Positions 6,260 through 61,447 of a DNA stretch of 64,000 nt are shown one piece after another. Within the stretch, counting starts at the first letter, position 1. The number at the start of each line of letters is the position of its first letter. The notes beneath the pieces were generated by a model. That model saw only the letters and a program-made list of their open reading frames with translations. It was not told the DNA's origin and did no database searches. Made by a program: the position numbers and the translations under genes. Origin of the DNA: an uncultured Chloroflexia bacterium (GTDB lineage: Bacteria > Chloroflexota > Anaerolineae > Anaerolineales > Villigracilaceae); the NCBI GenBank assembly GCA_963793795.1, contig CAWCBN010000010.1:345200-409199 (forward strand). The letters are read 5' to 3'.

Positions 6260-7093
6260 TTATAAAAATGTCTCCAGCATGTTCCCCACCTCGACCATAT
6301 TGAAGACTGGTCCATCCACGCACACCAGTTTCTCTCCCAGGTTGCACCGCCCGCATTTTCCCAGTCCGCAGTGCATGCGCGCCTCCAGGGTGACGTAATT
6401 CCATTCGGGTAAAAATCCCATCCTTGCCAGCAATCGAGTCGTGTGATGGATCATCACCGGGGGACCGCAGGTGATGGTCGCTGTATTCCTGGATGCAGGC
6501 GAGACTTTCTCCAATAACTGTGTGATAAGGCCGGTTTCATGCGTCCAATCCGCATCCGCGTTATCCACCGTGAGGTGCAGTGAGGTATCGGGGGCGGACC
6601 GCCACTCGTCATATTCATCGGTGAATACCAGCAGGTCAGGGCGGCGGGCAGCCCACAGGATGGTCAAATGTCCGTACTCGGCGCGGTGTTCGAGTACATG
6701 CTGGATGACCGGTCGCAGCGGTGCCCCGCCAATACCGCCACCCAGTACCACCAGGTTCTTGCCCTTGAACTTGTCCATCGGGAAATGATTGCCCAGCGGT
6801 CCTCGCACCCCCACGATATCACCGTCGCCCAATTCATGCAGACCGGTTGTCACGGTTCCAAGCCTTGCCACCGCGAATTCGATCACCGGTCCCCTCTCCA
6901 CTGCATTGGCGATCCCAAAGGGAGCTTCTCCCAATCCAAAGGCCGAGACAAAAGCGAATTGTCCAGGTAGATGGTTCTGAAATGCCCTACCAGCACCGTT
7001 CAACAATTCCAGTCGAAATAACTTGATCTCAGATGCCAGGTCGCGCACCTCAACCAGTTTCGCCAGGTGGGGCATCATCGGATTCCAGCTCAT
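6260..7093 (-). CDS. FAD/NAD(P)-binding 2Fe-2S oxidoreductase subunit (sulfhydrogenase gamma / FlxA / AsrB-like)
   Basis: Ferredoxin-reductase-type fold blocks (LVVLGGGIGGAPL) and C-terminal cysteine cluster CGLGKCGRCNLGEKLVCVDGP. The start ATG overlaps the upstream stop (ATGA). Confidence 0.75.
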   Translation of the reverse strand: MSWNPMMPHLAKLVEVRDLASEIKLFRLELLNGAGRAFQNHLPGQFAFVSAFGLGEAPFGIANAVERGPVIEFAVARLGTVTTGLHELGDGDIVGVRGPLGNHFPMDKFKGKNLVVLGGGIGGAPLRPVIQHVLEHRAEYGHLTILWAARRPDLLVFTDEYDEWRSAPDTSLHLTVDNADADWTHETGLITQLLEKVSPASRNTATITCGPPVMIHHTTRLLARMGFLPEWNYVTLEARMHCGLGKCGRCNLGEKLVCVDGPVFNMVEVGNMLETFL

Positions 7094-8103
7094 CTTATTA
7101 ACTCCAGGTCTGCCAGAATTTCACTGATGTCCACACCCGCCGGGCAGAGTTCGATGCAACGACCGCAACCGGTGCAGGCAATCCCGGCACCCAGGTGGTA
7201 TTGTTCGGGAAAATACAAAACCTTGCACATGAACCTGTTGCGCAGGCGATCGCCTTTTTCCGGGCGGGCACGATGTCCACCCGCCACGCGGCGATAGTTC
7301 TCACCGGCGCAACTATCCCAGCAGCGGATGCGCTCGAACTGACCAGGTTGCAACGCTTCATCGCGAACGACAAAGCATCGGCAAGTGGGGCAAACGTATG
7401 CGCAGGCACGGCAGGAAAGGCATCGCTCCGAAATTCTCTCCCAATATTGATCAGAAAAATGCTCCTTCCACTTCTCTTTTGAAAGATTCTGAAAACCTGT
7501 TTCCGAACGCGTATGGCTGTCCTCAGTTTCCTTCCACTCCCCGCCGGGTATCAGGAAACGGCCTTTCTCCGTCACGGCTTCAACCAGAAAGCCCTCGCTG
7601 GTTTCGTACAACATGATGTCCATTCCGCTGGAGTCGTCCGGGGTGCCACCTGTCGAGGTACAGAAGCAACTGGGACCCAATTCACGGCAAGCCAGGCCAA
7701 TCAGGGTGGTATTCTGGCGCCGACGGGCATAAAAGGGATCAACAGGATGGGTATCCATGAACAGGTTGTCCAGCAGCAAGGCGCCCCGGGCATCACACGG
7801 GCGAACACCGAAGACAACCGTTTCCCATTCAGGATAATTCTCCTCAAGGGCGATTTCCTGCCCGGTCTTCTGAATGGTGAACAATCGCTCCGTTGGTGGA
7901 AAAAAGGCTTCCTTCAGAGAGAGAAGCGGGCGAGTGAACGATGTTGCTATCTCCCCGCTGGTTTTCACACGCTTGTACAGGAGAACTCCGGATTTTTTAC
8001 TGGGAGCGATCAGGTTGCGCGCGGCAGCGATCCCATCCAGCCAACCCTGCATTTCGGTCCTTGAGATAAGCCAGTGCTTATGAAGAAGCATCGCATTGCT
8101 CAT
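7090..8103 (-). CDS. 4Fe-4S dicluster subunit (sulfhydrogenase beta / FlxB / AsrA-like)
   Basis: Cluster motifs CLSCRACAYVCPTC and CTGCGRCIELCP. Start chosen at MSNAMLLHK (8103), 1 nt after the upstream stop, rather than the longer ORF start at 8181. Confidence 0.7.
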   Translation of the reverse strand: MSNAMLLHKHWLISRTEMQGWLDGIAAARNLIAPSKKSGVLLYKRVKTSGEIATSFTRPLLSLKEAFFPPTERLFTIQKTGQEIALEENYPEWETVVFGVRPCDARGALLLDNLFMDTHPVDPFYARRRQNTTLIGLACRELGPSCFCTSTGGTPDDSSGMDIMLYETSEGFLVEAVTEKGRFLIPGGEWKETEDSHTRSETGFQNLSKEKWKEHFSDQYWERISERCLSCRACAYVCPTCRCFVVRDEALQPGQFERIRCWDSCAGENYRRVAGGHRARPEKGDRLRNRFMCKVLYFPEQYHLGAGIACTGCGRCIELCPAGVDISEILADLELIR

Positions 8104-8104
8104 C

Positions 8105-9448
8105 TCAGCCTTCCTTGTACTCACCGGAAAGAACTGTAACCACCGGGGATGGCACAACATCCACCCCGGCAAGGAAACCAAATTCTTCTTCCATCACTTG
8201 CGTCATCCTGCGGTTGAGCAGGCTGATGGGGATCTCCATTGGGCAGGCACGCTCGCATTCATTGCATCCCACACATCGACCTGCCAGGTGATATGCACGG
8301 ATAAGGTGAAAAGTGCGTTTTTCATTGTTGCGAATACCCATGCCAATCCAGGTTGAATCTTCCTGCTCTGCCAGGCAGGTGGGACAGTTGCACATTGGAC
8401 ATGCCTGGCGGCAGGCATAGCAACGGATGCAGCGGTCAAATTGGGAGATCCAGAATTCCATGCGTTCAGAGGGTGCGGCCGTCATAAGCTCGGACACTTT
8501 TTCTTCACAGCAGGATGTTAAGCGGGGAATGTAACGCGAGGTGGCACCCCCGATCAAGGTGTCACATACCGTCGGAACCGCCTCCTGGCAGGTGATGCAG
8601 CGGGTCTGAAGATCTCCATCGTGGTCGCAAATCCCTTCACAGGCCACGCCCAGTACATGCAGCTGGTCGCGTTGGAACTGGTTTTCCGCCAGCATCACGT
8701 TGATCGCTTTGCTGTCACACGGCTTGACCACCACTGCCACCTTCTTGGGAGGCTCCTTGCCAGAGGCTTTCAACTTGGACGGCAGATAGGATGTCAGGTT
8801 GTTGGTCGCCTGTGGATTCCATACCAGGCGGGCGGCATCCTCAGGAGAATATGCAAACGACGGGCGCGTCCGTCCATTCCTCCCAACCTCGTACCCGATG
8901 ACGCACCCGACCTCACCATTGCCAAGCAGCTCTTTTGCCTTGGCGCGGATGGCGTCTGTTTTCCCCGCGCAGTCAGTGACGGGCATCGGGATGGAAGCAG
9001 TGATCGATGGTAGAGCCTCCATAACAGGCTCCCAGGCGCCCGGGGGAATGCGCCAGGACGCAGGTCCCAGTTGGCGGACTGATTCGGTGAACTCGGTCAC
9101 GATATGAGCGAAGTGTTCGCCCTCGGAAGCAGAGACCCAGTCCAGGCGCAGCCGTTCAGGTTCGAGCCCAACAAAGGTTAACAGGTTGTGGAGGAGAGGA
9201 AATCGTTTTGCAGCACGGTGATTGCCGGAGTCGTAATGGCATTCCCCGATGTGACAACCGAGAATGATCACACCGTCAGCCCCCTGGTCGAAGGTCCGAA
9301 TGACCAGCTCGGGGGATACACGTCCGGAACAAGGCACGCGCACCGCGCGGATATTCGCCGGGGATTTCATCCTCGCAATACCAGCAGTGTCGGCTCCCGT
9401 GTAGGAACACCAAGTGCAGAGGAAGGCGATGATCTTGGGTTCGTACAT
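8105..9448 (-). CDS. MvhD-domain / 4Fe-4S ferredoxin fusion protein (FlxD-FlxC-like)
   Basis: N-terminus IIAFLCTWCSYTGAD...VPCSGRV...GADGVIILGCHIGECHY matches the methyl-viologen-reducing hydrogenase delta subunit fold. C-terminus has CIRCYACRQACPMC and CVGCNECERACP. Confidence 0.8.
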   Translation of the reverse strand: MYEPKIIAFLCTWCSYTGADTAGIARMKSPANIRAVRVPCSGRVSPELVIRTFDQGADGVIILGCHIGECHYDSGNHRAAKRFPLLHNLLTFVGLEPERLRLDWVSASEGEHFAHIVTEFTESVRQLGPASWRIPPGAWEPVMEALPSITASIPMPVTDCAGKTDAIRAKAKELLGNGEVGCVIGYEVGRNGRTRPSFAYSPEDAARLVWNPQATNNLTSYLPSKLKASGKEPPKKVAVVVKPCDSKAINVMLAENQFQRDQLHVLGVACEGICDHDGDLQTRCITCQEAVPTVCDTLIGGATSRYIPRLTSCCEEKVSELMTAAPSERMEFWISQFDRCIRCYACRQACPMCNCPTCLAEQEDSTWIGMGIRNNEKRTFHLIRAYHLAGRCVGCNECERACPMEIPISLLNRRMTQVMEEEFGFLAGVDVVPSPVVTVLSGEYKEG

Positions 9449-9486
9449 CCAATACTCCTAAGAGGATCTTTATCCTTGGTTCACCA

Positions 9487-12400
9487 TCAAGCCAGCGCGC
9501 CGATGATCTCAGCCACCAACTCGCGATCGTCAAAATGGATCAAGGTCACAGCCTTGTTTTGGCACGCGGCTGCGCACGTACCGCATCCTTTACAAAGGAA
9601 ACTGTTTACCTGTGCCACGGCATTGACCAACTCAACGGCGTGATACGGGCAGGCTGCCACACACTGCCCGCATCCGGCACATCTTTGCAAATCCACCTCG
9701 GCGATGGATGGGTCGAGGGCGATCATGCCCTGGTCCATGAGCGAGAGTGCTGCCGCCGAGGCGGCACCCGCCTGCGCCACGCTGTCTGGAATATCCTTGG
9801 GCGACTGGCATGCACCGGCAATGTAGATGCCTTCGCTGGCTGTTTCCACCGGGGCAAGCTTGGGATGCCGCTCGGAGAAGAATCCATCGCGTGTTCGGCT
9901 GATGCCAAATTTCGCCGCCACCTGCGCGGAATCCGCCTGCGGTTCGAAACCGGTCGCCAGGATGACCATATCCACATCCACGTGATCAGGCTGTCCATGG
10001 AAGGCTTCCGTCCAGGTAACTCGCAGGCCGTCATCCACGTGGGTGATATCATGCACCTTGCCGTGATGGAAGTTCACACCCATCTCTGCAGTGCGGTTGT
10101 AAAATTCTTCATATCCCTTGCCGAACGAGCGCATATCCCGATAGATCTCATGAACCTCGGCACCAATATACTCGTGGACCAATTGTGAAAACTTAAGTGA
10201 ATACATGCAGCAGGCGCGTGAACAATATTCGTTCGTGGTCGCATCGCGTGAGCCCACGCAATGGACAACAGCCACCCGTTTCGGTGTTCCCCCATCAGCG
10301 AGCAGTACTTTCCCGTTGGTGGGTCCGGAGGCATTGATCAGGCGTTCAAATTCAATGGCTGTCAGGATGTTCGCCAACTTTCCATGATTCAATTCGGGGA
10401 GGCGCGCGGGGTCAAAGTCACGAAAACCGGTCGCCAGGATGATGGTTCCCACCATAAACTCGTCATGGGTTTCTTTTGCATTGTGATCGATGGCTCCCCG
10501 GTCGCAGGCGGCTACGCATTCCAGGCACTCACCACAAGTCCCGCAGCGAACGCAGCGTTCAGCCTCGATGAGTGCTTCCTCTTCTGTAAGGGTCAGATCC
10601 ACCTCATTAAAATTGTGATAACGTTGCGCCAGCGGAATGGTGTGAATGCCAACCCTGTGTTTCCCGGAGGCCTCCCCATGAGCGATGCGCGTCCGCACTT
10701 CGGACTCGGTCAACGCCACGGTAGGTGGAAGGCTTGGCTCACTAATACCCGCAGCTCCCCGCAGGTAGCGATCCATGCAACGGGCGGCATGATGACCTTC
10801 ACCGATCGCATCCACCACGTAGAAGGTGGAACCGCGGTGAACATCACCGGCAACAAACACCCCCGGGAGCGTGGTCATCATCTCCTCATCGGAATCGATC
10901 CCGTTCCTGGCAAGCTTGACCAGCCCATCCTTAGGGAGAAATGACAGGTCGCAACCCTGACCGGTCGCCCAGATGACGATATCCGCCGGTAACACGTGCT
11001 CACTGCCGGGAAGTTCGTCGATCAGGATGCGCCCTTTTTCGTCGTAACCATGGTATTCCGTGCGCACGCATTTCACGCCGGTGACCTTGTCGTCCTCAAT
11101 GAGGATCTCCTTGAACATGGTGGCGCCGCACATTTTCACGCCTTCCTCTTCGGCGATCTCCACCTCCCACTCAAATCCGGTCATTTCACCCTTGGGCTTG
11201 CGGAAGATCATGCGGCATTCCCGTGCGCCGATGCGGATTGCGGAACGGGAACAGTCGAGGGCAACATTTCCGCCGCCGATGACCGCCACCCGTTTTCCGG
11301 TGAGATCGGGCGGGGTGCCAAGACATACCTGTTTGAGAAAAGGCAGGCTGAGCAGGTTGTCGGGATGATCCTTGCCCGGAATGTCCACCTTCTTGGCGAT
11401 ATGTGCACCCGAGGCAACCAGGACTGCATCAAATGGGTGAGCCGATGAACCCAGCCCGCCTGACAATAACCCGGGGATGTCATCGATCCAGGTATTGAGT
11501 TGCAATTCCACGCCCTCATCGAGGATCTGCTGGATCTCCCAATCGAGCATTTCATAGGGCAGGCGGTGGGGTGGGATGCCGACCCGGATCATGCCGCCTG
11601 CTTTCGGCTGGGCATCAAACACCTGCACCGCATGTCCGAGCCGCACCAGGTCAAGGGCAGCAGTCAGACCTGCCGGTCCGGCTCCGATCACGGCGACCTG
11701 TTTCCCCGTCGGCGTGGGTTTATGCTGGAAGGGAGTCCCGACGATGGACTTGTCGCGCATGTTCGGAAGCAGCTCACGATGAGCGTAAGCCCAATCCGCC
11801 ACGAAGCGCTTGATGCCCATGATATTGACGGGTTCATCCACCTTGCCGCGCGAGCAGGCAGCCTCACAGTTGCGGTTGCAAACACGTCCGCACACCGATG
11901 GGAAGGGATGCTCGCGGCGGATCGCCCAATAGGCATCCGCATAACGTTTCTGCCGGACCAGGGTGATATAACCCATGGCACGCTGGTCGGTGGGACAGGC
12001 AGCCCGGCACGGCGCCACACCCTTCTTGTCAATCACAAACGCACCGGGCACCGCCTGGGCTGAAAACCGGTAGGCTGCCTTGCGATTTGAGAGGCCGCGG
12101 TCAAACTCGTTGCTGACCTCCACCGGGCAAACGGAGGCGCAGTTGCTGCAGCCGGTACACTTGGTTTCATCCACGTAGCGCGGCTTGCGGCGGACCCGTA
12201 CCTGGAAATTTCCCACATAACCTGAAACAGACTCGATCTCGCTGTAAGCCAGGAGCTTTATTTTTGGGTGGCGTCCCACGGACACCATTTTCGGTGTAAG
12301 TATTCAGGCCGCACAGTCGAGCGTTGGGAAGGTCTTATACAGTTGGGCCATGTGCCCACCGATGCTCGACTCCCGCTCAACGAGATAGACCTGCTTCCCG

Positions 12401-12897
12401 GCGTCTGCCAGTTTTAGAGCCGCTTCGATACCCGCAATACCTCCACCGACGACAAGCGTGGCGGGAGTCATCTGTACCTGGCGCATGTCCAGCGGGTGAT
12501 GATAATGTACACGCTGGACCGCGGCAGAGACCAGAGAGCATGCTTTCGTGGTCGCCTGTTCCCGGTCCGCGACCACCCACGAGCAGTGTTCGCGGATGTT
12601 TGCCATCTGGAAGAAGAAAGGGTTCAACCCTCCCTCGGCGCAAGCCCGGCGAAAGGTCGGTTCATGCATCAGGGGCGAACAGGAGGCCACCACCACCCGG
12701 TTGACGCCCAGGTCCAGGATGTCCTGCTTGATGAGATCCTGTCCCGGGTCCGAGCACATGTAGGTGTAGTCGCGGGCAACGACCACGTTTTCCAATTTGC
12801 GGGCAAAATCGGTCACCGCGGCAACATCCACAGTCGCGGCGATATTCGTCCCGCAATGACAGACATAAACACCGGTTTTTATCTTGGAAAGATTCAT
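9487..12897 (-). CDS. hdrA: HdrA-like flavoprotein with inserted GltD/NfnB-like NAD(P)H module; predicted selenoprotein (TGA at 12304-12306 read as Sec)
   Basis: ORFs 12304..12897 and 9487..12288 are in the same frame, separated by TGA plus 5 codons (TFPTLDCAA-U-ILTPK-MVSVGRHP). HdrA hallmarks: VYVCHCGTNIA, GGGIAGIEAAL, C-terminal CAGCGQCVAACP / CKGCGTCAAAC. The internal module has PCRAACP, VCGRVC, VAVIGAGPAGL and VAVIGGGNVALD. Confidence 0.85.
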
Positions 12898-12967
12898 GCA
12901 CTCTCCTGTTGACTGCCTGGCAGCTTACCTGAGCACACTTGTCATTTGACTCACGCGGCGAACCGGC

Positions 12968-14953
12968 TCATGCCAGGGATAAAATACCATCAATCTCCGC
13001 CATGAGCTGGTCATTGGTGAAGCCGTTCTGGACGGCTGCACCAGCCGGACAGGCGGCAACGCAGGCTCCGCATCCCTTGCACAATACCTCGTTAACCTGC
13101 GCGACTTGTTTTCCATTCCATTCGACCATCGAGACAGCGCCATAAGGACACAGCCCTTCGCAGGTGTGACAGGCGCCACATTTTTCTGCAACGATGTATG
13201 AAGTGAACGGCTCCAGGTCCACCGTACCATGATCGAGAAGGGAGATTGCCGCGGCAGCTGCTGCTCCGCCGTGGGCGACACTATCCGGGATGTCCTTCGG
13301 TCCCTGGCATGTGCCCGCCAGGAAAATACCGTCACTCATGGTTTCCACCGGTGCCAGCTTGGGGTGCTTCTCCAGGAAGAATCCATCCGGGCTGCGGCTG
13401 ATCCCAAACCGGGCACCCACCTCGTGCTGGTCGTCCTGGGGTTCCATGCCGGTGGAAAGGACGACCATGTCCACGGCCGTCTTGAGCGTTTGCCCGCTAT
13501 ACACATCCCTGGCAATGACCGCTAACCGCCCATCAGTCTGCTCGACGCGAATGTCGCCATCGAAGCGGGCGAAATGAACTCCATGGTCCTCGGCGCGGTG
13601 GTAAAAGTTCTCGTAATCCTTTCCAAAGGCGCGCATATCCCGGTAGAACTCCACCACTTCCGCACCCACGTATTCCCTTACCAAGGTGGCTAGTTTTAAG
13701 GAATACATGCAGCAAACGCGTGAGCAATATTCGTTTTCAACTCCACGTGAGCCGACACAATGCAGGATTGCCACCTTCCTTGGTTTTTCTCCATTCTTGA
13801 GCAACACCCTGCCGCTTGTCGGACCGCCGGTATTGATCAGTCGTTCCATCTCCATGCCGGTGAAAACATTCGGCAAGGTGCCATAGCCATATTGAGCAGC
13901 CCGGTGCGGGTCAAAGTCGCTAAAACCGGTCGCCAGGATGATCGTGCCAACTTCGATCTCCTCGTGTTGTTCCACCTGTTCAAAGTCGATCGCCCCCACC
14001 GTGCAGAATTTTTCACAGGCGCGGCATTTCCCGGACTTGAAATAGGCGCAGTTCACGGTGTCGATGACCGGGACGCGCGGCACCGCCTGCGGGAATGGGT
14101 AATAGATGGCGGCACGGTTGCCCCACCCAAGGTCGAACTCGGAGGGGATCTTCTTCCACGGGCATTTATCAATGCAGGTTCCGCAACCGGTGCACAAGGA
14201 CTCGTTCACATAGCGCGGCTTGCGGCGAACGGTCACGGTGAAGTTGCCCACATAGCCGGCAACGTTTTCGACCTCGCTGTAGGTCATCAGCTTGATGTTG
14301 GGGTGGCGTCCCACGGACACCATCTTGGGGGTGAGTATTCAGGCTGCGCAATCGAGGGTTGGAAATGTTTTGTACAGGCGCGACATGTGCCCGCCGATGG
14401 ACGGTTCGCGCTCCACCAGGGTTACCTGTTTGCCCGAATCAGCCAGGCGGAGGGCTGCCTCGATCCCGGCGATCCCCCCTCCGACAACCAGCGCGGCCTG
14501 CTTCAGCCCCACCTGGCGCATTTCCAGCGGCACCTGCCAGCCCACGCGCCGCACAGCAGCCGCCACCAGCGCCTTGGCTTTCTCCGTTGCGGCAACGGGA
14601 TCCGCAGTGACCCACGAACAGTGCTCACGGATGTTGACCATCTGGAAGAGGAAGGGATTTAAGCCTGCCTCGGCGCAGGCACGCCGGAAGGTGCCCTCAT
14701 GCATGTTCGGACTGCAGGAGGCCACAACAATGCGGTCCAACCCTTCCTTGCGGATATCTTCAGCAATGAACGCCTGGCCGGGGTCTGAGCACAGGTAGGC
14801 ATAGTGGCGGGTAACGGTCACATGGGGCAGGGTAGCAGCAAATTGGGTGACTGCTTCCACATCCACAGTTGCGGCAATGTTCGTGCCACAGTGGCAAACA
14901 TAAACGCCGACGCGGGGCGAACCCTGCTTCGGCGCGGGTTGGGAGATCGTCAT
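12968..14953 (-). CDS. hdrA: Heterodisulfide-reductase subunit A-like flavoprotein; predicted selenoprotein (TGA at 14339-14341 read as Sec)
   Basis: ORFs 14339..14953 and 12968..14323 are in the same frame, separated by TGA plus 5 codons (TFPTLDCAA-U-ILTPK-MVSVGRHPNI). Canonical HdrA layout of about 661 aa: CHCGTNIA, GGGIAGIEAAL, inserted ferredoxin CTGCGTCIDKCP, C-terminal CGACHTCEGLCP / CKGCGACVAACP. AAGGAGA lies before the ATG. Confidence 0.9.
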
Positions 14954-15038
14954 GGCAGCGTCTCCTTTCCTTCAGGCAGCGATGAACTTACCAATAGTGC
15001 CACCTCTTCGGTAGATATGAAAATTTATCTTGGTATCA

Positions 15039-27161: not shown

Positions 27162-28532
27162 TTATAGAGCAGCAGTACCGTAGAGCTGGTTGCGCATCTG
27201 CACCACCTGGCGGCGGACCTTGTCGTCGCGTTCGAGCAGGTCGGCGATCTTCTCGCAGGCGTACATGACCGTGGTATGGTCACGCCCACCCAATGCCTGC
27301 CCGATCTGGGGCAGTGAGATGTTGGTTTCGCGCATCAGGAACATGGCGATCTGGCGCGGCAGGGCAACCTCACGGGTGCGCTCCGGGCTGAGCAGGCGGC
27401 TCACAGACAGGTTGAAGGTGCGGGCGACCACGTCGACCACGGCATCCGGTTTGACGTCACCACGCTGCGGCAGGAGGTCAGCGAGAGCCGTCTCCGCCAG
27501 TTGGGGGGTGAGGGACATACCGCTCAGTTCTGCAAAGGCGACGATACGGTTCAGGGCGCCTTCCAGCTCGCGGATGTTGGACTGAAACCTGCGGGAGATG
27601 AACTCCATGATCTCGGGCGGTATCGTCCGCCCCAGGCGCTCGCATTTTGTGCGCAGGATGGCCAGGCGTGTCTCGAAATCAGGCTGCTGGATGTCGGCAG
27701 TGAGACCCCACTCGAAGCGGGAACGCAGGCGCTCCTCCAGCGTGTACAGGGATTTTGGAGGCCGGTCGGAGGACACAATGATCTGCTTGTTCTGCCCGTG
27801 GAGAGTATTGAAGGTATGGAAGAATTCTTCCTGCGTGGATTCTTTCCCGGCGATGAACTGGATGTCATCCACCAGCAGCACATCCGCGGAGCGATATTTC
27901 TCGCGGAAGGCCTGGGTGGTATGGGTGCGGATGGCATTGATCAGGTCGTTGGTGAATTCCTCGGACGAAACATAAAGAACGTGCAGCCCGCGCTCCTGGC
28001 AGGCATTGCCGATGGCGTGCAAGAGATGGGTCTTGCCGAGACCCACCCCTCCGTAAAGGAAGAGCGGATTGTAGGCCGTGGCGGGTTGTTCGGCAACAGC
28101 CTGTGAGGCAGCATGCGCCAGGCGGTTGTTGTGCCCGACGACAAAATTATCAAATGTATAGCGGGGATTGAGGGTTACCGATGTATGGCGAGGAGCTACC
28201 GTTTCGACGGCAGATGAAGTGTCCGGGTCAGATCCTGGAGTGGAACCTTTTTCATTACCATTTCCAGCATTGACCACAAAACACACGTCCACTTCCCTGT
28301 TCATGATCCCCTTCAGGACACTGGTCACCGTACTGGCGAGGCGGTTATCCAACCAATCGCGGGCATAGGCATTGCGCACGCCAATGGTGAACAATCCTTC
28401 TTCGAAGGTGACCAGTTGGGTATCACGAACCCAGGTATCGAAAGATGCTTTCGGCATCTCCATCTGGAGCTGGCCCAGAGCCGACTGCCAGGCAACAACG
28501 GCGTCCATCTTCTCCTCCAATAAACCGTTCAC
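27162..28532 (-). CDS. dnaA: Chromosomal replication initiator protein DnaA
   Basis: Intact 456-aa ORF with NPLFLYGGVGLGKTHLLHAIG (Walker A), LLVDDIQF (Walker B), SNIRELEGAL, and C-terminal DNA-binding helix GGRDHTTVMYACEKI. GGAGGAG lies before the ATG. Confidence 0.97.
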   Translation of the reverse strand: MNGLLEEKMDAVVAWQSALGQLQMEMPKASFDTWVRDTQLVTFEEGLFTIGVRNAYARDWLDNRLASTVTSVLKGIMNREVDVCFVVNAGNGNEKGSTPGSDPDTSSAVETVAPRHTSVTLNPRYTFDNFVVGHNNRLAHAASQAVAEQPATAYNPLFLYGGVGLGKTHLLHAIGNACQERGLHVLYVSSEEFTNDLINAIRTHTTQAFREKYRSADVLLVDDIQFIAGKESTQEEFFHTFNTLHGQNKQIIVSSDRPPKSLYTLEERLRSRFEWGLTADIQQPDFETRLAILRTKCERLGRTIPPEIMEFISRRFQSNIRELEGALNRIVAFAELSGMSLTPQLAETALADLLPQRGDVKPDAVVDVVARTFNLSVSRLLSPERTREVALPRQIAMFLMRETNISLPQIGQALGGRDHTTVMYACEKIADLLERDDKVRRQVVQMRNQLYGTAAL

Positions 28533-42282: not shown

Positions 42283-44845
42283 CTATGGGACTGCGTAGAC
42301 AACCACATCCCCCGAGCGGAAACCCTCCACGAGGTTGCGCTGGAACTTGATCTCATTAAGATTGTACTCAAGTCGTTCCAGGGTTCCAACCACCACGTAG
42401 CGGATTGCATATTTCTGCAGGATGGATTGAGCCTGCTCCCATTCACCGGCCTGGTACAGCAGGGCAAGGTCACCCCTTCGCCTGTCCTGCTCTTCGAATG
42501 TGCCGCGCCATTGATATTCATGCCACCACCAGCCAATGACCGCAGGCTGACCGGAATATACCGATATCCGTCCATACATCGAATAAGCGTCATTACTGGC
42601 TGCCTCGGCAACAACACCAAGAGGTTGACCAGCCAACCAATCTGCCGCTGCGGCATCATCGGGATACATTTCGTGAAACAGCCTGGCTCCATCCAGCGTC
42701 CAGACAGAGGCAGCGGTGCGCAGGGGAGTCGGGTCGCCAGTGGCACGCGCATTCTCCAATGACTGTACAAAAGCCGGGATTTGGAAGTTGTTCGTCTTGT
42801 TGGGCAGGGCAAAAACGGGGAATGCCACCGCTGCCAGGAGCACCAGGCTCAACCCGCAAGAGTAGATCCATTTCCAAGCCCCGCGCAGTTCATGAAGCAT
42901 CACGGCTGCACCAAAGGCTGCTGACAGGCCCCATAATTGCCAGGCTTGAAAATAGAACTTGAAGACTGTGTTGAGGCGATAACCAAACAAATCACGCAAA
43001 TAGATGAACTCGGGGGCCAGGACGACGATCCCACCAAGAAGAACCAGGAAGAGAACAAAGGAAGAAGGCTGAAGATCGGGAGAAGAGGGGAGTGGGTCGT
43101 CGGGGGAATTTTCAGCATCTTCCAACTCTGGCTGCTTGTTCCCCATGCGGGCAAGGAAAGCCAGGCTGGGAATGAGCAAGGCGAGCAAGGTCAGTAGGCT
43201 GGCGATGGACTGGAGCCGCTTGAGCGAGGCCGCCTTCCAGAAAGGGAACATGTCGGAAAATCCCTGGGAGGCGAGATAATTTGCGCTGAACTCCGGGAGC
43301 CTGATTTGCACCAGCAAGGCAAGCAGCCACGAGAAGATCCATAACAAAAGCGCCACGCCAAGCCCCAGCCCGAGCCCGATCTTCCAGTTCGCAGGAAGTT
43401 TTTCCACCCGCCAAAGATAGGCAAGAAAAGCAAACAACACCAGGAAAAGAGGCCCGAACATCACCCATAGGTGCGCACCCCGCGTGGATGAATCCAGGTT
43501 GGGAAGGATGCCACCCGCCTGGGAAGAGAAGCCGACATAAAAAGGCAGGTAGAAAAGGATGGCAAGCAACCCGAGTGGGATAGCGAAGGCAAACAGGTCT
43601 TTTAACCGCTGCCAGCTCCAACCTGAGGAACGGGCATGCCCGAGCACATAAGCCCCTGTCAAAAGTGCCATGCCAAACAGGATATCCCAGGTGTTCAGGA
43701 AAGCCATGCCGCCCAGGAGCAACGCGCCGAAGAAGAAATGCTGCGGGCTCACCGGAAGGCGGTACCAACGCAAGTTCATCTCTCCCTTCCAGCCACCCAG
43801 GAACAAGTTTAGCGCCGCGGCGGCAAGCAACAGGCCGAACGGCATCGCCAGGACATGCGGGTGCAGGTCGCCCAGCATGTAGGAGAAAGCCGGGAATTCA
43901 TCGATGATCTCGCGCACGTTGCCAGCCAGGTCAGTATCCTGGATGACGCGCGAGTCCTGCCACCACCAGATGTAGCGCGTGGGGGTCCATTGCAGCGGCA
44001 GGGCAGGCGGCTGGTCGAGATGCTTGATCCCCAACCAGGTCCAGAATGCTGATGTTGGCGCCCCTTCAGCAGGGAATTTCCAGAAGAGGCCGCGACTGTG
44101 AAGCACTTCCAGGAAGCCGGCAAAATTGGAGACAAAAAGCAGGAACAGAGGCCCAAGCATGGGTAAGCCAATGGAAGGCTTGTTGGTACCCTGAGCATAT
44201 TTCAGACGCCAGGCTGCCAGAAGGTTGTACACTATGCCGTAGGCGCCGATGAAACTCAGAGCAAAGACAAGCGCGCAGCATCAGGTTGTGCGCCACTGCC
44301 CCGGAAGTGGCAGTGGCTTTTGCCAGCATGGCGGTCATCACATAGCCAAAATAATAGTACGAGATCGAATAGCCTGAAAGCCAGGGGTCGTGCGGAGGGA
44401 AAACAGGGGAGCGCAGGATGGCATTGATGAATGCCAGTTCCATTGTCTTTTCTCCGCCCGCCGTTTCGATGTTCGGATTGGACGCCCGAACGAATGCCCA
44501 GGCAGCAAACACCAGGAAAAAGAGCAATTCCACGGTGATCACGACCCGGGCGTTGGTCTTGATCCAGGACAGGATGGAATTTCCGCGGTTTGCCAGGGAT
44601 TTCCAGAATACGAAGGCGCTCAAGCCGAAAACAAGCAGGAAGGAGAAAAACAATCCGCCGTTATTGTTCTGGATAACGCCCAGGGAGGCCAGGATCCAGA
44701 AAATATATCCCCAGAACAGGAGACTGAGCGCACGCGCCAGGCTGAATCCCCGATCAGCCAGGGCAGGGAAGAGCCGCCATGCCAGCGGAAAGGTGATCCA
44801 GCCGAGGAGGGTGATGAGCAGGTACCAGGCAAAGAAGTGGATCAT
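42283..44845 (-). CDS. DUF2298 (chlor_Arch_YYY) polytopic membrane protein, one frameshift
   Basis: N-terminus MIHFFAWYLLITLLG...GGEKTMELAFINAILRS..FPPHDPWLSGYSISYYYFGY (signature YYY motif). It continues as ...LVFALSFIGAYGIVYNLLAAWRLKY after one extra base near 44270. Highly hydrophobic throughout. Confidence 0.8.
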
Positions 44846-45510
44846 GAAGACCCGTTCCGACCAACTCCTGCACCAGGAGAGGCAGGCGAAAGGAGTTTGA
44901 CCATGCGGAAATAGCCCTTACCGGCTTGTGCAGCACCCTGCCGATAAAACTGGGCGTGGCTGACGTGGTAACCGGTGCGCTCGTAGAGACGCCGGGCGCT
45001 GGTATTGTCCATATCCACGCACAAGGAACAACGGGTAATTTGCAGCCCGAGAGCTTGTTCTTCGGCGAAAGCCAACAGGCGTGATCCAAGCCCGCGTCCC
45101 TGGAATCCCGGCAGGACGGCAACATTGCTCAGGTAATACTCCCCGGGCAGCGCTTCCTTCCCGGGAATGCACAATGCACGCCATACCAGGCGTGCCAGCG
45201 CGGGCAGGCTGAACCAACCTACCAGGGACAACCCGGTCTCCAGGTCCAGCCCGTGAACATCCCCGCCAGGGTAAGAGACCAGGATTCCGGCAGGCATGTT
45301 TTCCAGTTCCAGGATCCAGGCATATCGATAGCTCAGGCGGTTCCTGCCTGGGCTGCAATAAAGGGTGGTGATCGTTTCCATGACCGTCCGCTGCGGTTCA
45401 CTACCGAAGATGTAATCAGCCAGGCACCCCATGGTCTGGTAGAGCAGTTGGGCTGCAATGGGTGCATCATCGGGAAGGGCAGGACGGATCACGATCGTTT
45501 CTTCACTCAT
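44842..45510 (-). CDS. GNAT family N-acetyltransferase
   Basis: VAVLPGFQGRGLGSRLL (acetyl-CoA binding Q/RxxGxG/A) and ARRLYERTGY blocks. Overlaps its neighbours by 4 nt on both sides. Confidence 0.8.
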   Translation of the reverse strand: MSEETIVIRPALPDDAPIAAQLLYQTMGCLADYIFGSEPQRTVMETITTLYCSPGRNRLSYRYAWILELENMPAGILVSYPGGDVHGLDLETGLSLVGWFSLPALARLVWRALCIPGKEALPGEYYLSNVAVLPGFQGRGLGSRLLAFAEEQALGLQITRCSLCVDMDNTSARRLYERTGYHVSHAQFYRQGAAQAGKGYFRMVKLLSPASPGAGVGRNGSS

Positions 45511-45851
45511 GGCAGCGGCAGTTCAAAAGTGCCCTGCGTCCCGGCGGGAAAGTCCAGGACACGGAGCACGGCATCCAAATTTAGAAAGCCATAAATATGG
45601 GGGAATAACTCATCCGCCTTGTCGGTGCCAGGTTCCCAGCGGATATCCGGCTCGACCACGGCAGGATCAATTTCAAGCAGCACCAGTCCGCTTTGACCAC
45701 GATAAAATGCGTTGGCGACGCGCACGACCTGGTCAGAAGTGGAACAATGGATAAATCCCTGGCTGGCCAATGAGTTGGCGCGATAAGCACCCGTTTCCTG
45801 GGCGGCAGCCCAGGCAAGCCGGGTGGTAATGTGGTAGATCAACCTGCTCAT
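45507..45851 (-). CDS. DUF952 domain protein
   Basis: MSRLIYHITTRLAWAAAQETGAYRANSLASQGFIHCST..Q....AN.FY......LVLLEID...V...IRWE......ELFPHIYG.LN..AV matches my recollection of DUF952. Confidence 0.75.
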   Translation of the reverse strand: MSRLIYHITTRLAWAAAQETGAYRANSLASQGFIHCSTSDQVVRVANAFYRGQSGLVLLEIDPAVVEPDIRWEPGTDKADELFPHIYGFLNLDAVLRVLDFPAGTQGTFELPLP

Positions 45852-48800
45852 GGTTGCACCTCGTACAAGACTGTCTCTCCGTCACGGTAAACTTCATTCC
45901 AATAGACGCCGTTGTACTGCTCGAATTTTTCCAGGCCATCCGGGGCTTCAAGCGGGACAGGACCGCTCGGAGCGCCGGGAGCATACTTGGCACGTTCCAA
46001 TTGACCTACGATAATATAACGGACATCGTACTTGTCCAGGAATTTCAGGGCAGAGTCAATCTCGGTCGTTGCATAGAACGAATCCACCTCCAGCCCGCGT
46101 TGGATGACCTGGGTGGAGAAATAGACGCGCTGTTGCTGCTCGTGCCACTGCCAGCCGACCACATCCGGCAAGCCTGTATAAATGGAAAATCGCGCCAACC
46201 AGGTATATTGGACACCTGCCGGAGCAGCCTCAACGATGACCGGCGAACCCTGGACATTCTCCTGCATCCAGCGAATGGCGCGATAATCCTCAGCCGTGCT
46301 GAAGGTGCGCCCGAACTCACCATAGGTGGCATATTGCATATAGCTCATGCTATCCAGGGTGTGCGGGGCTTCAGGGATCCAGCGGTCGCGGATCTTGTCA
46401 GCGCCGCCGATGAGCAGCACCAGCGCCGCGCCGCTGATCAGCAGCGTGGACATCACCTGCCAAAATCCACGCCATCCCGGTAGCCACTTGTGGATCGCGC
46501 CGAGAACCCAGACAAATCCCGCCCCTGCCGGGATCCCTAGCAGGAACCAGGACTGCACGCCAAACTTGTACAGCGTGTTCATCCGCCCCACATCGCCTGC
46601 AACCACGATCAACTCGGCCATCATGGTCAGGAACAACCCGGTGCCGGTCATGAACAACATCAAGCGCTTGACATCCGATAATCCCGGACGGAAGAGCAAC
46701 AGCACTGCCGCCCATACCGCCAGGGGCAGGGCAAGCCACAGGATGGTAACCCCGTTCCATGGGGGTGTCTGGCTGGGGAGCATCACCCATGCCTGTTGAC
46801 CGATGAGCACCAGAATCGCCAGGATCACACCGCTGAGGATGAGTTCGCGGTAGGGGCGCAACTTCTTAAGCGCAGAAACAGGCGTTTCGGCCAGCCATTG
46901 GCGCGTCTCCCACGCCATCCAGGAAACAATGAAGAATAACGGTACCCCCCACTGGGTCAGGTAAATGGAAAGGGGTGTGCGCGGCCCGGTCCATTTACTG
47001 ACCGATGAATAAGCCTGCCCGAACCAGTGGGAGAAGGGTTGGAACATGAGCAGGGAAAGGCCAACCAGGATCGCCAGGGCTCCACCGGTCAACAGCAGGC
47101 GCTTGATGCCATCCGAGAGGGGAAGAGCCAGGCGTTCCGGTTTGCAATAACGCCAGGTTGCATAAGCCAGGGCGAGGATCCCGAAGACGAAGTAAGTGTA
47201 GTAATCCCAGGTGTTGGTTGGTTTCAATGCGCCGATGACCAGTGCACCCAGGAAGAAACCCAGCACGGCATCCGTAGTGCTCTTCCATTGCATCCTGGAT
47301 TGAAGCAGCGAGATCACCCATGCGATCACCAGAACGGCGAGCATGTAGGCGATCATGTGAGCATGCAGGTCGGAATAGAGGAAGGTGAACAGGGGAAATT
47401 CGTAAAAATCACCGTAGGGATAGGGGAAGATGCGCGTGGAGAACCAGTACCAGTCCCCATGGATATAGGGCAGATTCATCCCAGCCAGGGTCAGGAAGAA
47501 TCCTTTCAGCGTCCACCATGTCTTTTCCAACAGGTTGGCGCCTTCGGTAATTCCCCCTGGCGCTCCGTTGCGCTGGAAACCCAGCATGAACATGCGCACG
47601 ATCCCCAGGTTGCCCAGCAGGAGGACTGCCGACGAAGTGCTCGCGCCAGCCAGGATTTTCTGGAAGTGAGTTTTGTACGACCAACCGCCTTCTGGAAGGT
47701 GGGGCCGGATCAGGTTGTAGCCGACAGAGAAGGTGGCGACTCCCAGGATGGCAAAAAGGGTCGGCAGGATGAAGTTGAAGGCAATGGAAGGAACGATGCC
47801 CAGCAATTTAACCGGCGTGGCGACAATGACCGAACCAAAGTAATAATAGTTGATATACCCGCCCGCAAACCAGGCATCATAGGGCGGGAAAGTGGTGCTC
47901 TTTAAAATGGCGTTCAACTGGGCGAAGTTCATCGGACGTTCGCCACCCTTGGATGGATGCCACAGGTCTGGATTGCCGATGCGAATGAACAGGTCAAGCA
48001 GGAAGAAGGCCAGGAAGAGCAATTCCAGGAACAGGTAGAGTTTCCAGCGGCGACCCCACTCATCCTTTAACCCTTCACGCTGGCGCCATGCCTGCCAACC
48101 ACCAAACAGGGCCACACACCCCAGGGCAATGCCAATGGTACCCTTGCTGTAAGGAATCCCCGCTGAACCGGCAAGCCAGGCAAGCCAGGCCCAGAGCAGC
48201 AGTCCGACAATGCGCGCCAGGGGATAACCGCTGTCAGACAGGCCTGGCAGGGCAGCCCGCACCACCGGAAAAGCAAACAAGCCTACCAGGAAGATGACCA
48301 GGTACCAGATCACCAGTCCAAGGTATGGATATTTGTTCTGCAAGGCATCGGTATGGAACAGGTCTGACCATGTTCCGCCTTCCTGCTGCGCCAGGCGTTG
48401 TCCCGCAGGTAGCATCAGGTCCTTATAATCGTCGGCCTGTCCAGGCAGGAGGTATACAACACCACCCAGGTCCACCGACCCGAGGATGGTCTGCACTTTA
48501 AGCGGATCGTAACCGGCATTCTTCTTGAAGATGAGCACCTTGGGGTGATCATAAAAAGTAAAAGCTTCCTCCGCCGGTTGGTCGTTGATCACCAGGGAAC
48601 CCAGCGTGGGGTAATCGGTGAAAGTGGCGACCAGATCGAAGCCAAGCTCCTCCTGGAACATGCCGGGTTCAGCCTCGCGGTAACAGCGGATGATATCCTC
48701 CCCCTTCGGACAGCCAACCAGGGCACGATAATACGCCGTGGTCAATGGATAGCGTTCCGGGAGGCGGGTGATCTGGGCATACTGGTGGTTGGTGGGAATA

Positions 48801-50856: not shown

Positions 50857-50880
50857 AGATTTTTATGTGTTCTTCTTTGA

Positions 50881-59489: not shown

Positions 59490-59685
59490 TAGCAACTCCT
59501 TGATATCAGATAAATCAGAGAGCAGGGAACAGTTCAATTCTCTTCCAATGTTATCAGGTTGTATCAGGAATTTCGGACAATTCGGTAAATAGTATTTGTG
59601 TGAGAGGAGCCTGGTTCGTTTGCTCCTTGTTTGCTGCGTTTGAGGTAGGCAATGTAACCATTAACATGCGAACAATTCGTGACTT

Positions 59686-60082: not shown

Positions 60083-61137
60083 TTAGAACTGCTCCAAAAA
60101 TCTCAAATCATTTTCCCAGAAATAGCGAATGTCGTTGATGCCGTACTTTAGCATGGCGATGCGCTGGACGCCAAAACCGAAGGCAAAACCGGTATAGATC
60201 TCGGGGTCATAACCGCCATTTTTCAACACAACGGGATGCACCATGCCGCTCCCGCCAATCTCCAGCCAACCACCACCGCAAACATTGCAGCCCTTGCCGC
60301 CGCACTGGAAGCATTCGATGTCAAACTCCGCGGACGGCTCTGTGAAGGGGAAGAACGACGCCCGGAAGCGCGTCCGGGCCTGGGAGCCGAACAAGCGCCG
60401 TGCCATGTCGGTCAGCGTCCCTTTTAGGTCGCTGAAGGTGATGCCCGGGCCGACCGCAAGTCCCTCCAACTGGTCGAATTGCGTCTCGTGGCGCGCATCC
60501 ACCTGTTCGTAGCGGTACACCATGCCCGGTAGGATGATGCGCACCGGTGGTGGATTTTGCGGGTCCCGCGCCGACATCTCACGCATGGCGCGGATCTGCC
60601 CGGGGAGGTATGCGTACGCAGCACGATCGGGTTGTCACCGCGACCTTCCGCCTCGATGAAGTAGGTATCCTGCATGTCACGTGCCGGATGACCAATGGGG
60701 AAATTTAGCAGTTGGAAATTGTATTCGTCGCTTTCGACCTCGCGCGATCGGTACACCTGGAAGCCCATCTCGGCAAAGACACGATACAGTTCACGCAGGA
60801 TCTGCGTGTCGGGATGCAGGCGGCCCATTGGCACTCTTCGCCCGGGCAGGGTGACATCCAATTTATCCTGTTCGAGCGAACGCCTGAGCGATGCCTGGTT
60901 CAGCTCTTCGGTTTTCAGGGCGAACGCCGCCTCGAGGGCTTTTTTAACTTCGTTGGCCTGTTGACCGACGAGAGGGCGTTGCTCCTTCGGTAATGTCCCC
61001 AGTACAGTGAAAACCTGCATCAGGGCGGAGGAGCGTCCCAGGGAGGCGACGCGCCATTGTTCCAGGGCAACCTCGTCCTGCACACCGCTTAAAGCGGCAA
61101 GCGCTGTTTTTTCAATTTCCTTCAATTGTTCGAGCAT
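60083..61137 (-). CDS. pheS: Phenylalanine--tRNA ligase alpha subunit, one frameshift
   Basis: GGAGGCAGGT precedes ATG ([10 protein letters not shown]). [11 protein letters not shown] (motif 1 region), LRTHTSPG / QIRAMREM (one C missing near 60600), [16 protein letters not shown] (motif 2), [13 protein letters not shown] (motif 3). Confidence 0.95.
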
Positions 61138-61147
61138 ACCTGCCTCC

Positions 61148-61420: not shown

Positions 61421-61447
61421 GTTTTTAACGCATACCTATTCATAGCT

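What the first reader, a model, noticed from the sequence alone, without database searches (positions are those of the whole stretch)
14321..14347. Second, independent in-frame UGA at the same position in the canonical HdrA paralogue
- ORFs 14339..14953 and 12968..14323 share a frame.
- The junction reads ...KTFPTLDCAA-TGA-ILTPK-MVSVGRHPNI, the same peptide context as in the neighbouring paralogue.
- The flanking codons differ at synonymous sites (GAT/GAC, TGC/TGT, GCA/GCG; CTC/CTT, ACC/ACA, CCC/CCG, AAG/AAA), so this is not a recent copy artefact.
- The joined CDS 12968..14953 is 1986 nt.
- Two tandem Sec-HdrA genes in what looks like a Chloroflexota genome is worth recording.
Basis: partly seen in the sequence, partly recalled or inferred. 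Interest (0 to 1): 0.7.

Follow-up and report, generated by a model that had tools for sequence, protein, structure and literature searches.

The report
Selenocysteine codon in bacterial HdrA gene
The in-frame TGA is very probably a genuine selenocysteine codon, served by its own RNA hairpin, at the known selenocysteine position of the flavoenzyme subunit HdrA; it is a well-supported but expected case of a known selenoprotein family, found here in uncultured Anaerolineae (Chloroflexota) where gene callers cut the gene in two.

Summary
The minus-strand CDS 14953..12968 (1986 nt) has a single in-frame TGA at 14341..14339. The joined 661-aa product is a full-length HdrA (PDB 5odc_A, E 2e-218).

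The TGA aligns with Cys197 of a solved methanogen HdrA and with the non-standard residue X197 of PDB 9sfi_A. That is the position published as Sec197 in M. maripaludis, inside the family's CxxU motif.

A hairpin at 14322..14304 starts 16 nt after the UGA. It has an 8-bp stem and a GUG loop, and meets all four constraints of the bacterial SECIS consensus.

- In 14 Anaerolineae/Chloroflexota genomes, all 29 sites in both tandem paralogues keep the TGA.
- The four degenerate stem codons never vary, while flanking synonymous sites vary freely.
- Cys-type relatives with the same five-gene operon carry TGC and have lost the hairpin.
- In metagenomes, 141 of 141 perfect hairpins follow TGA, never TGC or TGT.
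- TGA is also the commonest ordinary stop codon in the window.
- The internal ATG has no ribosome-binding site, and the five codons between UGA and ATG change almost only synonymously.

Sec-HdrA, tandem hdrA-hdrA and selenocysteine use in Chloroflexota are all already published, so this is a new member of a known kind. No sel genes or tRNA-Sec could be checked.

The parts
12968..14953 (-). hdrA-like gene (paralogue A1). It is one CDS of 661 sense codons with Sec at codon 205, and its own terminator is a TGA at 12970..12968.
   Evidence: Translation. PDB 5odc_A E 2e-218, covering residues 12-657. NCBIfam HdrA2/HdrA models score 802 and 594 bits, below their equivalog cut-offs. Gene callers record only the 451-aa C-terminal fragment (P0005).
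14962..14966 (-). Shine-Dalgarno AGGAG, 8 nt upstream of the ATG at 14953.
   Evidence: Read directly from the sequence. There is no comparable motif before the internal ATG at 14323.
14339..14341 (-). UGA read as selenocysteine. It is residue 205 and the second redox residue of the motif Cys202-Ala-Ala-Sec205 (CxxU).
   Evidence: Aligns with Cys197 of 5odc_A and with X197 of 9sfi_A. Sec197 is published for M. maripaludis HdrA. TGA is kept at 29/29 sites and 141/141 metagenome matches.
14323..14338 (-). A/C-rich 16-nt spacer (AUACUCACCCCCAAGA) between the UGA and the hairpin. It encodes ILTPK and the first base of Met.
   Evidence: The five codons show almost only synonymous changes: CTT/CTC, ACA/ACC, CCN, AAA/AAG, with one Thr-to-Ser among 29 sequences. 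They are therefore translated.
14304..14322 (-). Bacterial SECIS hairpin: 5' arm UGGUGUCC (14322..14315), loop GUG (14314..14312), 3' arm GGACGCCA (14311..14304).
   Evidence: Folds; where the hairpin is the only predicted structure the energy is -11.9 kcal/mol. The stem codons are invariant in 29 sequences while flanking codons vary. The hairpin is broken in Cys-type relatives. It meets the consensus constraints quoted.
9487..12897 (-). Tandem paralogue A2: an HdrA carrying a roughly 500-aa NfnB/GltD-like insertion in the inserted ferredoxin domain. It has its own Sec-UGA at 12306..12304 and an identical hairpin at 12287..12269.
   Evidence: The same kind of insertion is described for ANME-1 HdrA9-11.
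8105..9448 (-). MvhD (FlpD) domain fused to a Fer4_8 iron-sulfur domain. This is the Cys form, with no internal stop.
   Evidence: Pfam PF02662 at 4e-51; NCBIfam VhuD.
7090..8181 (-). Sulfhydrogenase-beta/AsrA-like iron-sulfur protein (Fer4_22).
6260..7093 (-). Sulfhydrogenase-gamma/AsrB/PyrK-like FAD/NAD(P)-binding protein with a 2Fe-2S domain. It is the last gene of the conserved five-gene operon.
   Evidence: The operon order is conserved in the related loci.

Best explanation
The TGA at 14341..14339 (minus strand) is a selenocysteine codon inside a single 661-codon hdrA-like gene.

Recoding (inferred from established bacterial Sec biology): while the ribosome translates the mRNA, a hairpin 16 nt downstream (8-bp stem, loop G-U-G, apical loop 24 nt from the UGA) acts as a bacterial SECIS. 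It recruits SelB-GTP-Sec-tRNASec, so Sec is inserted instead of RF2 terminating. Elsewhere in the same genome UGA is an ordinary stop.

Shown here: Sec205 is the second residue of a Cys-x-x-Sec motif in the thioredoxin-reductase-like FAD domain. It is the exact counterpart of Cys197/Sec197 of methanogen HdrA.

From the literature: that residue lies between the bifurcating FAD and the N-terminal [4Fe-4S] cluster. It has been described either as a ligand, in trans, of the partner protomer's cluster, or as half of a Cys-Sec selenylsulfide electron relay.

Inferred context: the gene is first in a conserved five-gene operon made up of hdrA, hdrA with an NfnB-like insert, mvhD-Fer4, hydB-like and hydG-like. 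There is no hdrBC. The product is probably a soluble NAD(P)H- and ferredoxin-linked flavin-based electron-bifurcating complex in which the two Sec-HdrA paralogues dimerise.
For: - **Gene identity:** the joined product matches solved HdrA end to end (E 2e-218).
- **Position:** the UGA column is Cys197 in 5odc_A and the non-standard residue X197 in 9sfi_A. Sec197 is reported in M. maripaludis HdrA (PMC13518236). HdrA is listed as a CxxU selenoprotein family (PMC9312934; PMC1794560).
- **Homologues:** of the top 120 protein clusters, 95 have Cys at this position and 22 are truncated to start at MVSVGRHP, which marks them as miscalled Sec forms.
- **Conservation:** TGA is present at 29/29 sites in 14 genomes, with 74-85% amino-acid identity on both sides of it.
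- **RNA constraint:** of 25 fully conserved codon columns that are at least 4-fold degenerate, between -170 and +48, only four use a single codon. All four are stem codons (+7, +8, +10, +11).
- **Contrast with Cys forms:** L015 and L016, which carry the same operon, have TGC plus synonymous changes that break the stem.
- **SECIS consensus** (3-9 nt loop, 4-16 bp stem; G in the first two loop positions, followed by G or U; 16-37 nt spacing; MFE at most -7.5; PMC13188914): all four constraints are met, with a 3-nt GUG loop, an 8-bp stem, 24-nt spacing and -11.9 kcal/mol.
- **Not a reassigned codon:** TGA terminates 12 of 25 probable genes in the window, including this one.
- **Not two genes:** AGGAG precedes the ATGs at 14953, 12897 and 9448, but nothing precedes the internal ATGs. 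The ILTPK codons between UGA and ATG vary almost only synonymously, with one Thr-to-Ser in 29.
- **Lineage plausibility:** SelB and Sec-FdhA are reported in Anaerolineales (PMC4959059), and Sec-type hydrogenases in Chloroflexota.
Against: - No selA, selB, selC (tRNA-Sec) or selD lies in the 64-kb window or in the fetched loci. Whether this genome can decode Sec is therefore inferred, not shown.
- The stem is invariant, so there is no compensatory covariation. Support comes from suppressed synonymous change and from the contrast with Cys forms.
- Folding energy alone is not significant against shuffles (z -1.07 for the 89-nt stretch).
- Rfam has no matching family.
- There are no protein-level data.
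- The 29 sites are phylogenetically related rather than independent samples.
Confidence: 0.9

Rival explanations
1. The UGA is a real stop. The locus encodes two polypeptides of 204 aa and 451 aa, the second starting at the ATG five codons downstream (a split HdrA).
For: Public annotation calls the 451-aa ORF as a separate protein (P0005). An ATG lies 15 nt after the stop.
Against: There is no Shine-Dalgarno motif before the internal ATG, while three operon genes have AGGAG. The five codons between the UGA and the ATG are kept as ILTPK, with almost only synonymous change; this is unexpected for untranslated spacer. The break falls inside the FAD-binding thioredoxin-reductase fold and removes the second half of the CxxC/U motif. 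TAA or TAG never replaces the TGA at any of 170 sites.
Confidence: 0.03
2. The UGA is read through without the Sec machinery, by near-cognate Trp, Cys or Arg tRNAs. The hairpin would act only as a generic read-through stimulator.
For: The sel genes could not be examined. Downstream hairpins can stimulate read-through in other systems (general knowledge).
Against: The site is the known Sec position of the family, where every other homologue has Cys. The hairpin fits the SECIS consensus, including the G-U at the start of the loop. Relatives that left UGA went to Cys codons and then lost the hairpin. The lineage is reported to have SelB.
Confidence: 0.05
3. The TGA is a sequencing or assembly error, or the gene is a decaying pseudogene.
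For: The window does carry apparent frameshifts in pheS, pheT and a DUF2298 gene, so the assembly is not error-free.
Against: The same TGA occurs in 13 other independent genome assemblies and 120 metagenome contigs. Both halves of the gene are under equal purifying selection. The errors seen elsewhere in the window are indels, not substitutions.
Confidence: 0.01

Closest known systems
Sec-containing HdrA of Methanococcales (M. maripaludis / M. jannaschii; Sec197; PDB 9sfi_A has a non-standard residue at 197)
   Same: Same protein family and domain order. Sec sits at the same alignment column in the same C-x-x-U motif.
   Different: Archaeal SECIS elements lie in the 3' UTR, whereas here the element is a hairpin inside the coding sequence. 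The methanogen enzyme works with HdrBC and Vhu/Fdh on CoM-S-S-CoB, whereas this operon has no hdrBC. The protein also scores below the NCBIfam equivalog cut-offs for the methanogen enzymes.
Bacterial Sec-HdrA selenoprotein family (Deltaproteobacteria and Clostridia; Zhang et al. 2006, PMC1794560)
   Same: Bacterial in-CDS SECIS, Sec replacing a redox Cys, several copies per genome, and tandem hdrA-hdrA arrangements.
   Different: The host phylum is Anaerolineae/Chloroflexota. The operon partners are NfnB-like, MvhD-Fer4 and HydB/HydG-like proteins, rather than glpC-hdrA-frhD-frhG-frhA. The MvhD here is a Cys form.
E. coli fdhF-type bacterial SECIS / consensus bSECIS model
   Same: A stem-loop just 3' of the UGA, with G then U at the start of a small apical loop, and spacing within 16-37 nt.
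   Different: The element here is a short perfect 8-bp stem with a 3-nt loop. No bulged U and no lower stem were detected. SelB binding has not been tested.
ANME-1 HdrA9-11 with an NfnB-like insertion (PMC9012536). This concerns the neighbouring paralogue.
   Same: A roughly 500-aa NfnB/GltD-like module interrupts the inserted ferredoxin domain of HdrA.
   Different: The example here is bacterial, Sec-containing, and paired in tandem with a canonical HdrA.
FlxABCD-HdrABC of Desulfovibrio. This comparison rests on my own knowledge and was not read here; only the term appeared in search results.
   Same: An HdrA combined with MvhD-like, iron-sulfur and NAD(P)H-binding flavoprotein subunits of the sulfhydrogenase beta/gamma type.
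   Different: There is no HdrB or HdrC, there are two HdrA paralogues, and there is an NfnB-like module.

Membership tests
HdrA family (heterodisulfide reductase subunit A-like flavoprotein) | [quoted passage not shown] | tested here: met
   5odc_A E 2e-218, query residues 12-657 against chain residues 3-649. Pfam Pyr_redox_2/FAD and Fer4 domains.
HdrA family (heterodisulfide reductase subunit A-like flavoprotein) | Membership of the methanogen CoB-CoM heterodisulfide reductase equivalogs, judged by the NCBIfam cut-offs. | tested here: not met
   802 bits against a cut-off of 1100 (HdrA2 model) and 594 against 1400 (HdrA model). No hdrB or hdrC is in the operon. It is therefore an HdrA-family protein, but it should not be filed as a CoM-S-S-CoB reductase.
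Sec-HdrA selenoprotein family (CxxU) | An in-frame UGA at the column of Cys197/Sec197, forming C-x-x-U. | tested here: met
   Alignments. Sec197 in the literature. CxxU listed for HdrA.
Bacterial selenoprotein gene | Homologues have Cys at the UGA position, and the reading frame is conserved on both sides. | tested here: met
   95 full-length homologues have Cys. Both halves are 74-85% conserved.
Bacterial selenoprotein gene | A bSECIS meeting the consensus: 3-9 nt loop, 4-16 bp stem, G in loop position 1 or 2, 16-37 nt from the UGA, MFE at most -7.5 kcal/mol. | tested here: met
   GUG loop, 8 bp, 24 nt, -11.9 kcal/mol. Criteria taken from PMC13188914.
Bacterial selenoprotein gene | Selection acts on the RNA structure itself, and the structure is lost when UGA becomes a Cys codon. 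| tested here: met
   Only the stem codons are invariant. The hairpin is broken in L015 and L016. 141/141 perfect hairpins follow TGA. There is no compensatory covariation, because the stem never varies.
Bacterial selenoprotein gene | The genome encodes selA, selB, selC (tRNA-Sec) and selD. | not testable with these tools
The literature reports SelB in Anaerolineales.
Bacterial selenoprotein gene | Selenium is physically present in the polypeptide. | not testable with these tools
   This needs 75Se labelling or mass spectrometry.

The most novel reading that the evidence does not exclude
The conserved Anaerolineae operon may encode a previously uncharacterised, HdrBC-less, selenium-dependent bifurcating enzyme. 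In this reading, a heterodimer of canonical Sec-HdrA and Sec-HdrA-NfnB exchanges Sec197 contacts with the partner's N-terminal cluster. Together with an NfnA/HydG-like NAD(P)H module and MvhD, it would work as an Hdr-built NADH/NADPH/ferredoxin transhydrogenase with up to three flavin sites. The lineage-wide, nucleotide-invariant SECIS would then reflect an unusually strict SelB specificity. That specificity could be used as a probe for other Anaerolineae selenoproteins.
Probability: 0.2. Interest if true: 0.55.

Novelty: new member of a known kind. Interest (0 to 1): 0.3.

Why it matters
**Annotation.** This gene and its neighbour are cut in two in public annotation. The 451-aa fragment P0005 is one example, and 22 of the 120 best protein clusters start at MVSVGRHP. 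Metabolic reconstructions of abundant soil, sediment and groundwater Anaerolineae therefore miss or mislabel two intact flavoprotein genes and overlook a selenium requirement.

**Biology.** The finding adds a clade, well sampled in genome assemblies and metagenome contigs, to the Sec-HdrA family. It comes with natural Sec/Cys pairs of the same operon, and two Sec-HdrA paralogues in one operon. Such pairs are useful material for the open question of what Sec197 does in HdrA: cluster ligand, or selenylsulfide relay.

It does not change any concept.

Tried and rejected
- **Rfam scan of the window:** only a T-box was found, with no SECIS family hit. This is uninformative, because no Rfam family matched the hairpin.
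- **Thermodynamic significance of the fold:** z was -1.07 and -1.66, too weak alone. It was replaced by the synonymous-site test.
- **tRNA-Sec search** in the window and in 16 loci: none found.
- **Wagner et al. 2017 structure paper:** not held. The role of Cys197 was taken from PMC9012536 and PMC13518236 instead.
- **NJ tree with 200 bootstraps:** it fixes the A1, A2 and A1+A2 clades at 200/200. It does not resolve whether the Sec forms are monophyletic within each paralogue (112/200 and 61/200). The direction of Sec/Cys change therefore rests on the shared hairpin, and on the Arg at +11 that the Cys forms of the clade retain, not on the tree.
- **Other TGA-bridged ORF pairs in the window:** none looks coding.
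- **Genome-wide UGA reassignment:** rejected, because TGA is the commonest terminator.

Full report
**1. The observation**

On the minus strand, the ORFs 14953..14339 (204 aa) and 14323..12968 (451 aa) are in one frame. Translating 14953..12968 gives 661 sense codons with one internal stop, in the context ...KTFPTLDCAA*ILTPKMVSVGRHPNI.... The TGA occupies 14341..14339.

The next gene downstream (12897..9487) has the same context around its TGA at 12306..12304.

**2. What the gene is**

With the stop masked, the product matches the solved HdrA of Methanothermococcus thermolithotrophicus (5odc_A) at E 2e-218 over residues 12-657. It also matches four other solved HdrA chains. Pfam finds the FAD/Rossmann domain and both ferredoxin-type domains.

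The NCBIfam HdrA models hit strongly, but below their equivalog cut-offs (802 against 1100; 594 against 1400). The protein is therefore an HdrA-family flavoprotein, and should not be assumed to be a CoM-S-S-CoB reductase.

**3. The position of the UGA**

- The stop aligns with Cys197 of 5odc_A.
- It also aligns with a non-standard residue (X) at position 197 of 9sfi_A, in the context KTFPTDDCAMXILAPKMV.
- The 2026 cryo-EM paper on the M. maripaludis Hdr-Vhu-Fwd complex describes selenocysteine Sec197 of HdrA. It places the residue next to a cysteine, between the FAD and the N-terminal cluster A3, and proposes a selenylsulfide relay (PMC13518236).
- An earlier reading of the methanogen crystal structure describes Cys197 as a ligand of the N-terminal cluster of the partner HdrA protomer (PMC9012536).
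- Reviews list HdrA as a selenoprotein family with a CxxU motif (PMC9312934). The motif here is Cys202-Ala-Ala-UGA205.

**4. Conservation**

A scan of species-representative genomes gave 13 Anaerolineae/Chloroflexota assemblies with 74-82% identity, plus one deltaproteobacterial locus.

- All 13 carry the tandem pair, and all keep TGA at this column in both paralogues. One of them, L009, has a third copy. Together with the window this makes 29 sites. The deltaproteobacterial gene has TGC.
- Amino-acid identity to the window is the same on both sides of the UGA: 74-85% for the N-terminal part and 74-85% for the C-terminal part.
- Among the 120 best protein clusters, 95 are full-length with Cys at this column. 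Another 22 are about 451-469 aa and begin exactly at MVSVGRHP, meaning they are Sec forms truncated by gene callers. The window's own C-terminal fragment is recorded that way in NCBI/ENA (P0005).

**5. The RNA element**

A hairpin starts sixteen nucleotides after the UGA: UGGUGUCC-GUG-GGACGCCA, at 14322..14304. The identical 17-nt core occurs only twice in the window, once after each UGA.

Across the 29 sites, 25 codon columns between -170 and +48 have a fully conserved amino acid that is at least 4-fold degenerate. Only four of those columns use a single codon in every sequence. They are Val+7 GUG, Ser+8 UCC, Gly+10 GGA and Arg+11 CGC, which are exactly the stem codons. Neighbouring Pro, Leu, Thr and Gly codons use two to six different codons. 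The loop codon Val+9 varies at its third base.

Cys-type relatives make the contrast. L016 has the same five-gene operon with TGC in both paralogues, and L015 has TGC with the identical peptide MVSVGRHP. Both carry synonymous or conservative changes that weaken or destroy the stem: UCG and CGU in L015, and GUC GCC GUC in the A1 gene of L016.

A metagenome scan used a pattern that accepted TGA, TGC or TGT in front of the perfect hairpin. The third loop base took all four values.

The element meets all four constraints of the published bacterial SECIS consensus (PMC13188914):

| Constraint | Consensus | Here |
|---|---|---|
| Apical loop | 3-9 nt | 3 nt (GUG) |
| Upper stem | 4-16 bp | 8 bp |
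| Loop start | G in position 1 or 2, followed by G or U | G then U |
| UGA to loop | 16-37 nt | 24 nt |
| MFE | at most -7.5 kcal/mol | -11.9 kcal/mol |

Limits of this evidence:
- The stem never varies, so there is no compensatory covariation.
- Folding energy against shuffles is not significant on its own.

**6. Alternatives**

- **Codon reassignment.** TGA ends 12 of 25 probable genes in the window, including this gene itself at 12970..12968. UGA is therefore not reassigned genome-wide.
- **Two separate genes.** AGGAG precedes the start codons at 14953, 12897 and 9448, but nothing comparable precedes the internal ATGs at 14323 and 12288. The five codons between the UGA and that ATG (ILTPK) change almost only synonymously in 29 sequences, with one Thr-to-Ser exception. 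This shows they are translated. A split would also cut the FAD domain and the CxxU motif.
- **Sequencing error.** The cross-genome conservation excludes this, even though the window does contain apparent indel frameshifts elsewhere.
- **Sec-independent read-through.** This cannot be formally excluded without protein data.

**7. What could not be shown**

The literature reports SelB and Sec-FdhA in Anaerolineales single-cell genomes, SelB in Anaerolinea thermophila (PMC4959059), and Sec-type [NiFe] hydrogenases in Chloroflexota (PMC13582414). The lineage is therefore known to decode Sec.

**8. Evolution**

In an NJ analysis of 45 sequences with 200 bootstraps, the canonical paralogue (A1), the NfnB-insert paralogue (A2) and the A1+A2 group are each recovered 200/200. 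Other Cys-type HdrAs fall outside.

Cys forms fall inside both paralogue clades. Their exact placement is unresolved: Sec-only monophyly is recovered 112/200 for A1 and 61/200 for A2.

Three observations point the same way:
- Both paralogues carry the same hairpin, base for base.
- The Cys forms of this clade retain the hairpin-specific Arg at +11, where other HdrAs have Gln, Met or Ser.
- L015 looks like a decaying hairpin.

The most economical reading is one Sec-HdrA ancestor with its SECIS, then duplication, then occasional Sec-to-Cys reversion. This is an inference. Gene conversion between the paralogues is an alternative.

**9. Context and likely function**

The gene heads a five-gene operon that is conserved in the related loci:

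| Order | Window coordinates | Product |
|---|---|---|
| 1 | 14953..12968 | hdrA (A1) |
| 2 | 12897..9487 | hdrA with a roughly 500-aa NfnB/GltD-like insert (A2) |
| 3 | 9448..8105 | MvhD-Fer4 fusion |
| 4 | 8181..7090 | sulfhydrogenase-beta/AsrA-like iron-sulfur protein |
| 5 | 7093..6260 | sulfhydrogenase-gamma/PyrK-like FAD/NAD(P) protein |

There is no hdrB or hdrC.

An NfnB-like insertion in HdrA has been described in ANME-1 archaea. Tandem hdrA-hdrA selenoprotein genes have been described in Deltaproteobacteria.

The likely product is a soluble NAD(P)H/ferredoxin-linked bifurcating complex. That step is inferred from domain content only.

**10. Verdict**

This is a real selenocysteine codon with its SECIS, at the canonical position of a known selenoprotein family, in a phylum already known to use Sec. 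It is a new member of a known kind. The case is well supported, useful for correcting annotation, and a source of natural Sec/Cys pairs, but it is not surprising to a specialist.

Noticed in passing
window 9487-12897 (-): The neighbouring paralogue is an HdrA whose inserted ferredoxin domain is interrupted by a roughly 500-aa NfnB/GltD-like NAD(P)H-flavoprotein module. It carries its own Sec-UGA (12306..12304) and an identical SECIS (12287..12269). A similar insertion has so far been described for ANME-1 archaeal HdrA9-11.
   Followed up: partly
window 6260-14953 (-); L016 8001-16608: The five-gene operon has no hdrB or hdrC. It contains an NfnA/HydG-like subunit and an NfnB-like module, two HdrA paralogues and an MvhD-Fer4 fusion. 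It is conserved in both Sec-type and Cys-type (L016) relatives. The substrate is unknown; it could be an Hdr-built NAD(P)H/ferredoxin oxidoreductase.
   Followed up: partly
window 14336-14338 and 14348-14350 (-); loci L001-L016: Codon choice next to the UGA is skewed. Ile+1 is AUA in 28 of 29 genome sites (AUA 85, AUU 51, AUC 5 in metagenomes). Cys-3 is UGU in 27 of 29, and Ala-1 is GCC in 27 of 29. In contrast, all four Cys-type sites examined (L012, L015 and both genes of L016) use AUC and UGC. This may be a local context effect on Sec insertion versus termination; it is unexplained.
   Followed up: partly
P0005 and 22 of the 120 clusters: Public gene calls truncate these Sec-HdrA genes to a fragment of about 451-469 aa starting at MVSVGRHP. 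JGI labels some of these fragments 'heterodisulfide reductase subunit A'.
   Followed up: yes
L009 2478; L010 2913; L078 (3 matches): Some relatives carry a third Sec-HdrA copy, of the A2 type, a few kilobases upstream of the tandem pair.
   Followed up: no
window 60083-61149 (-), 56899-59537 (-), 42283-44845 (-): pheS, pheT and a DUF2298 membrane-protein gene each appear split into two overlapping ORFs in different frames. These look like indel frameshifts, which suggests that the assembly carries indel errors. This has no bearing on the TGA, which is a conserved substitution-level feature.
   Followed up: partly
window 61169-61428 (-): A T-box leader (Rfam RF00230, 94.7 bits) lies directly upstream of pheS-pheT.
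   Followed up: no
window 27162-28532 (-): dnaA is present, so the window may lie near the chromosomal replication origin.
   Followed up: no
window 42283-53091 (-): A cluster of very large DUF2298 membrane proteins (one of 1284 aa) sits with PMT_2-type glycosyltransferases and methyltransferases.
   Followed up: no
L002, L010, L013, L014: In several 'MFD' long-contig assemblies the HdrA genes match only in broken pieces. This suggests frameshifts in those assemblies. The TGA and the hairpin are nevertheless intact in them.
   Followed up: no
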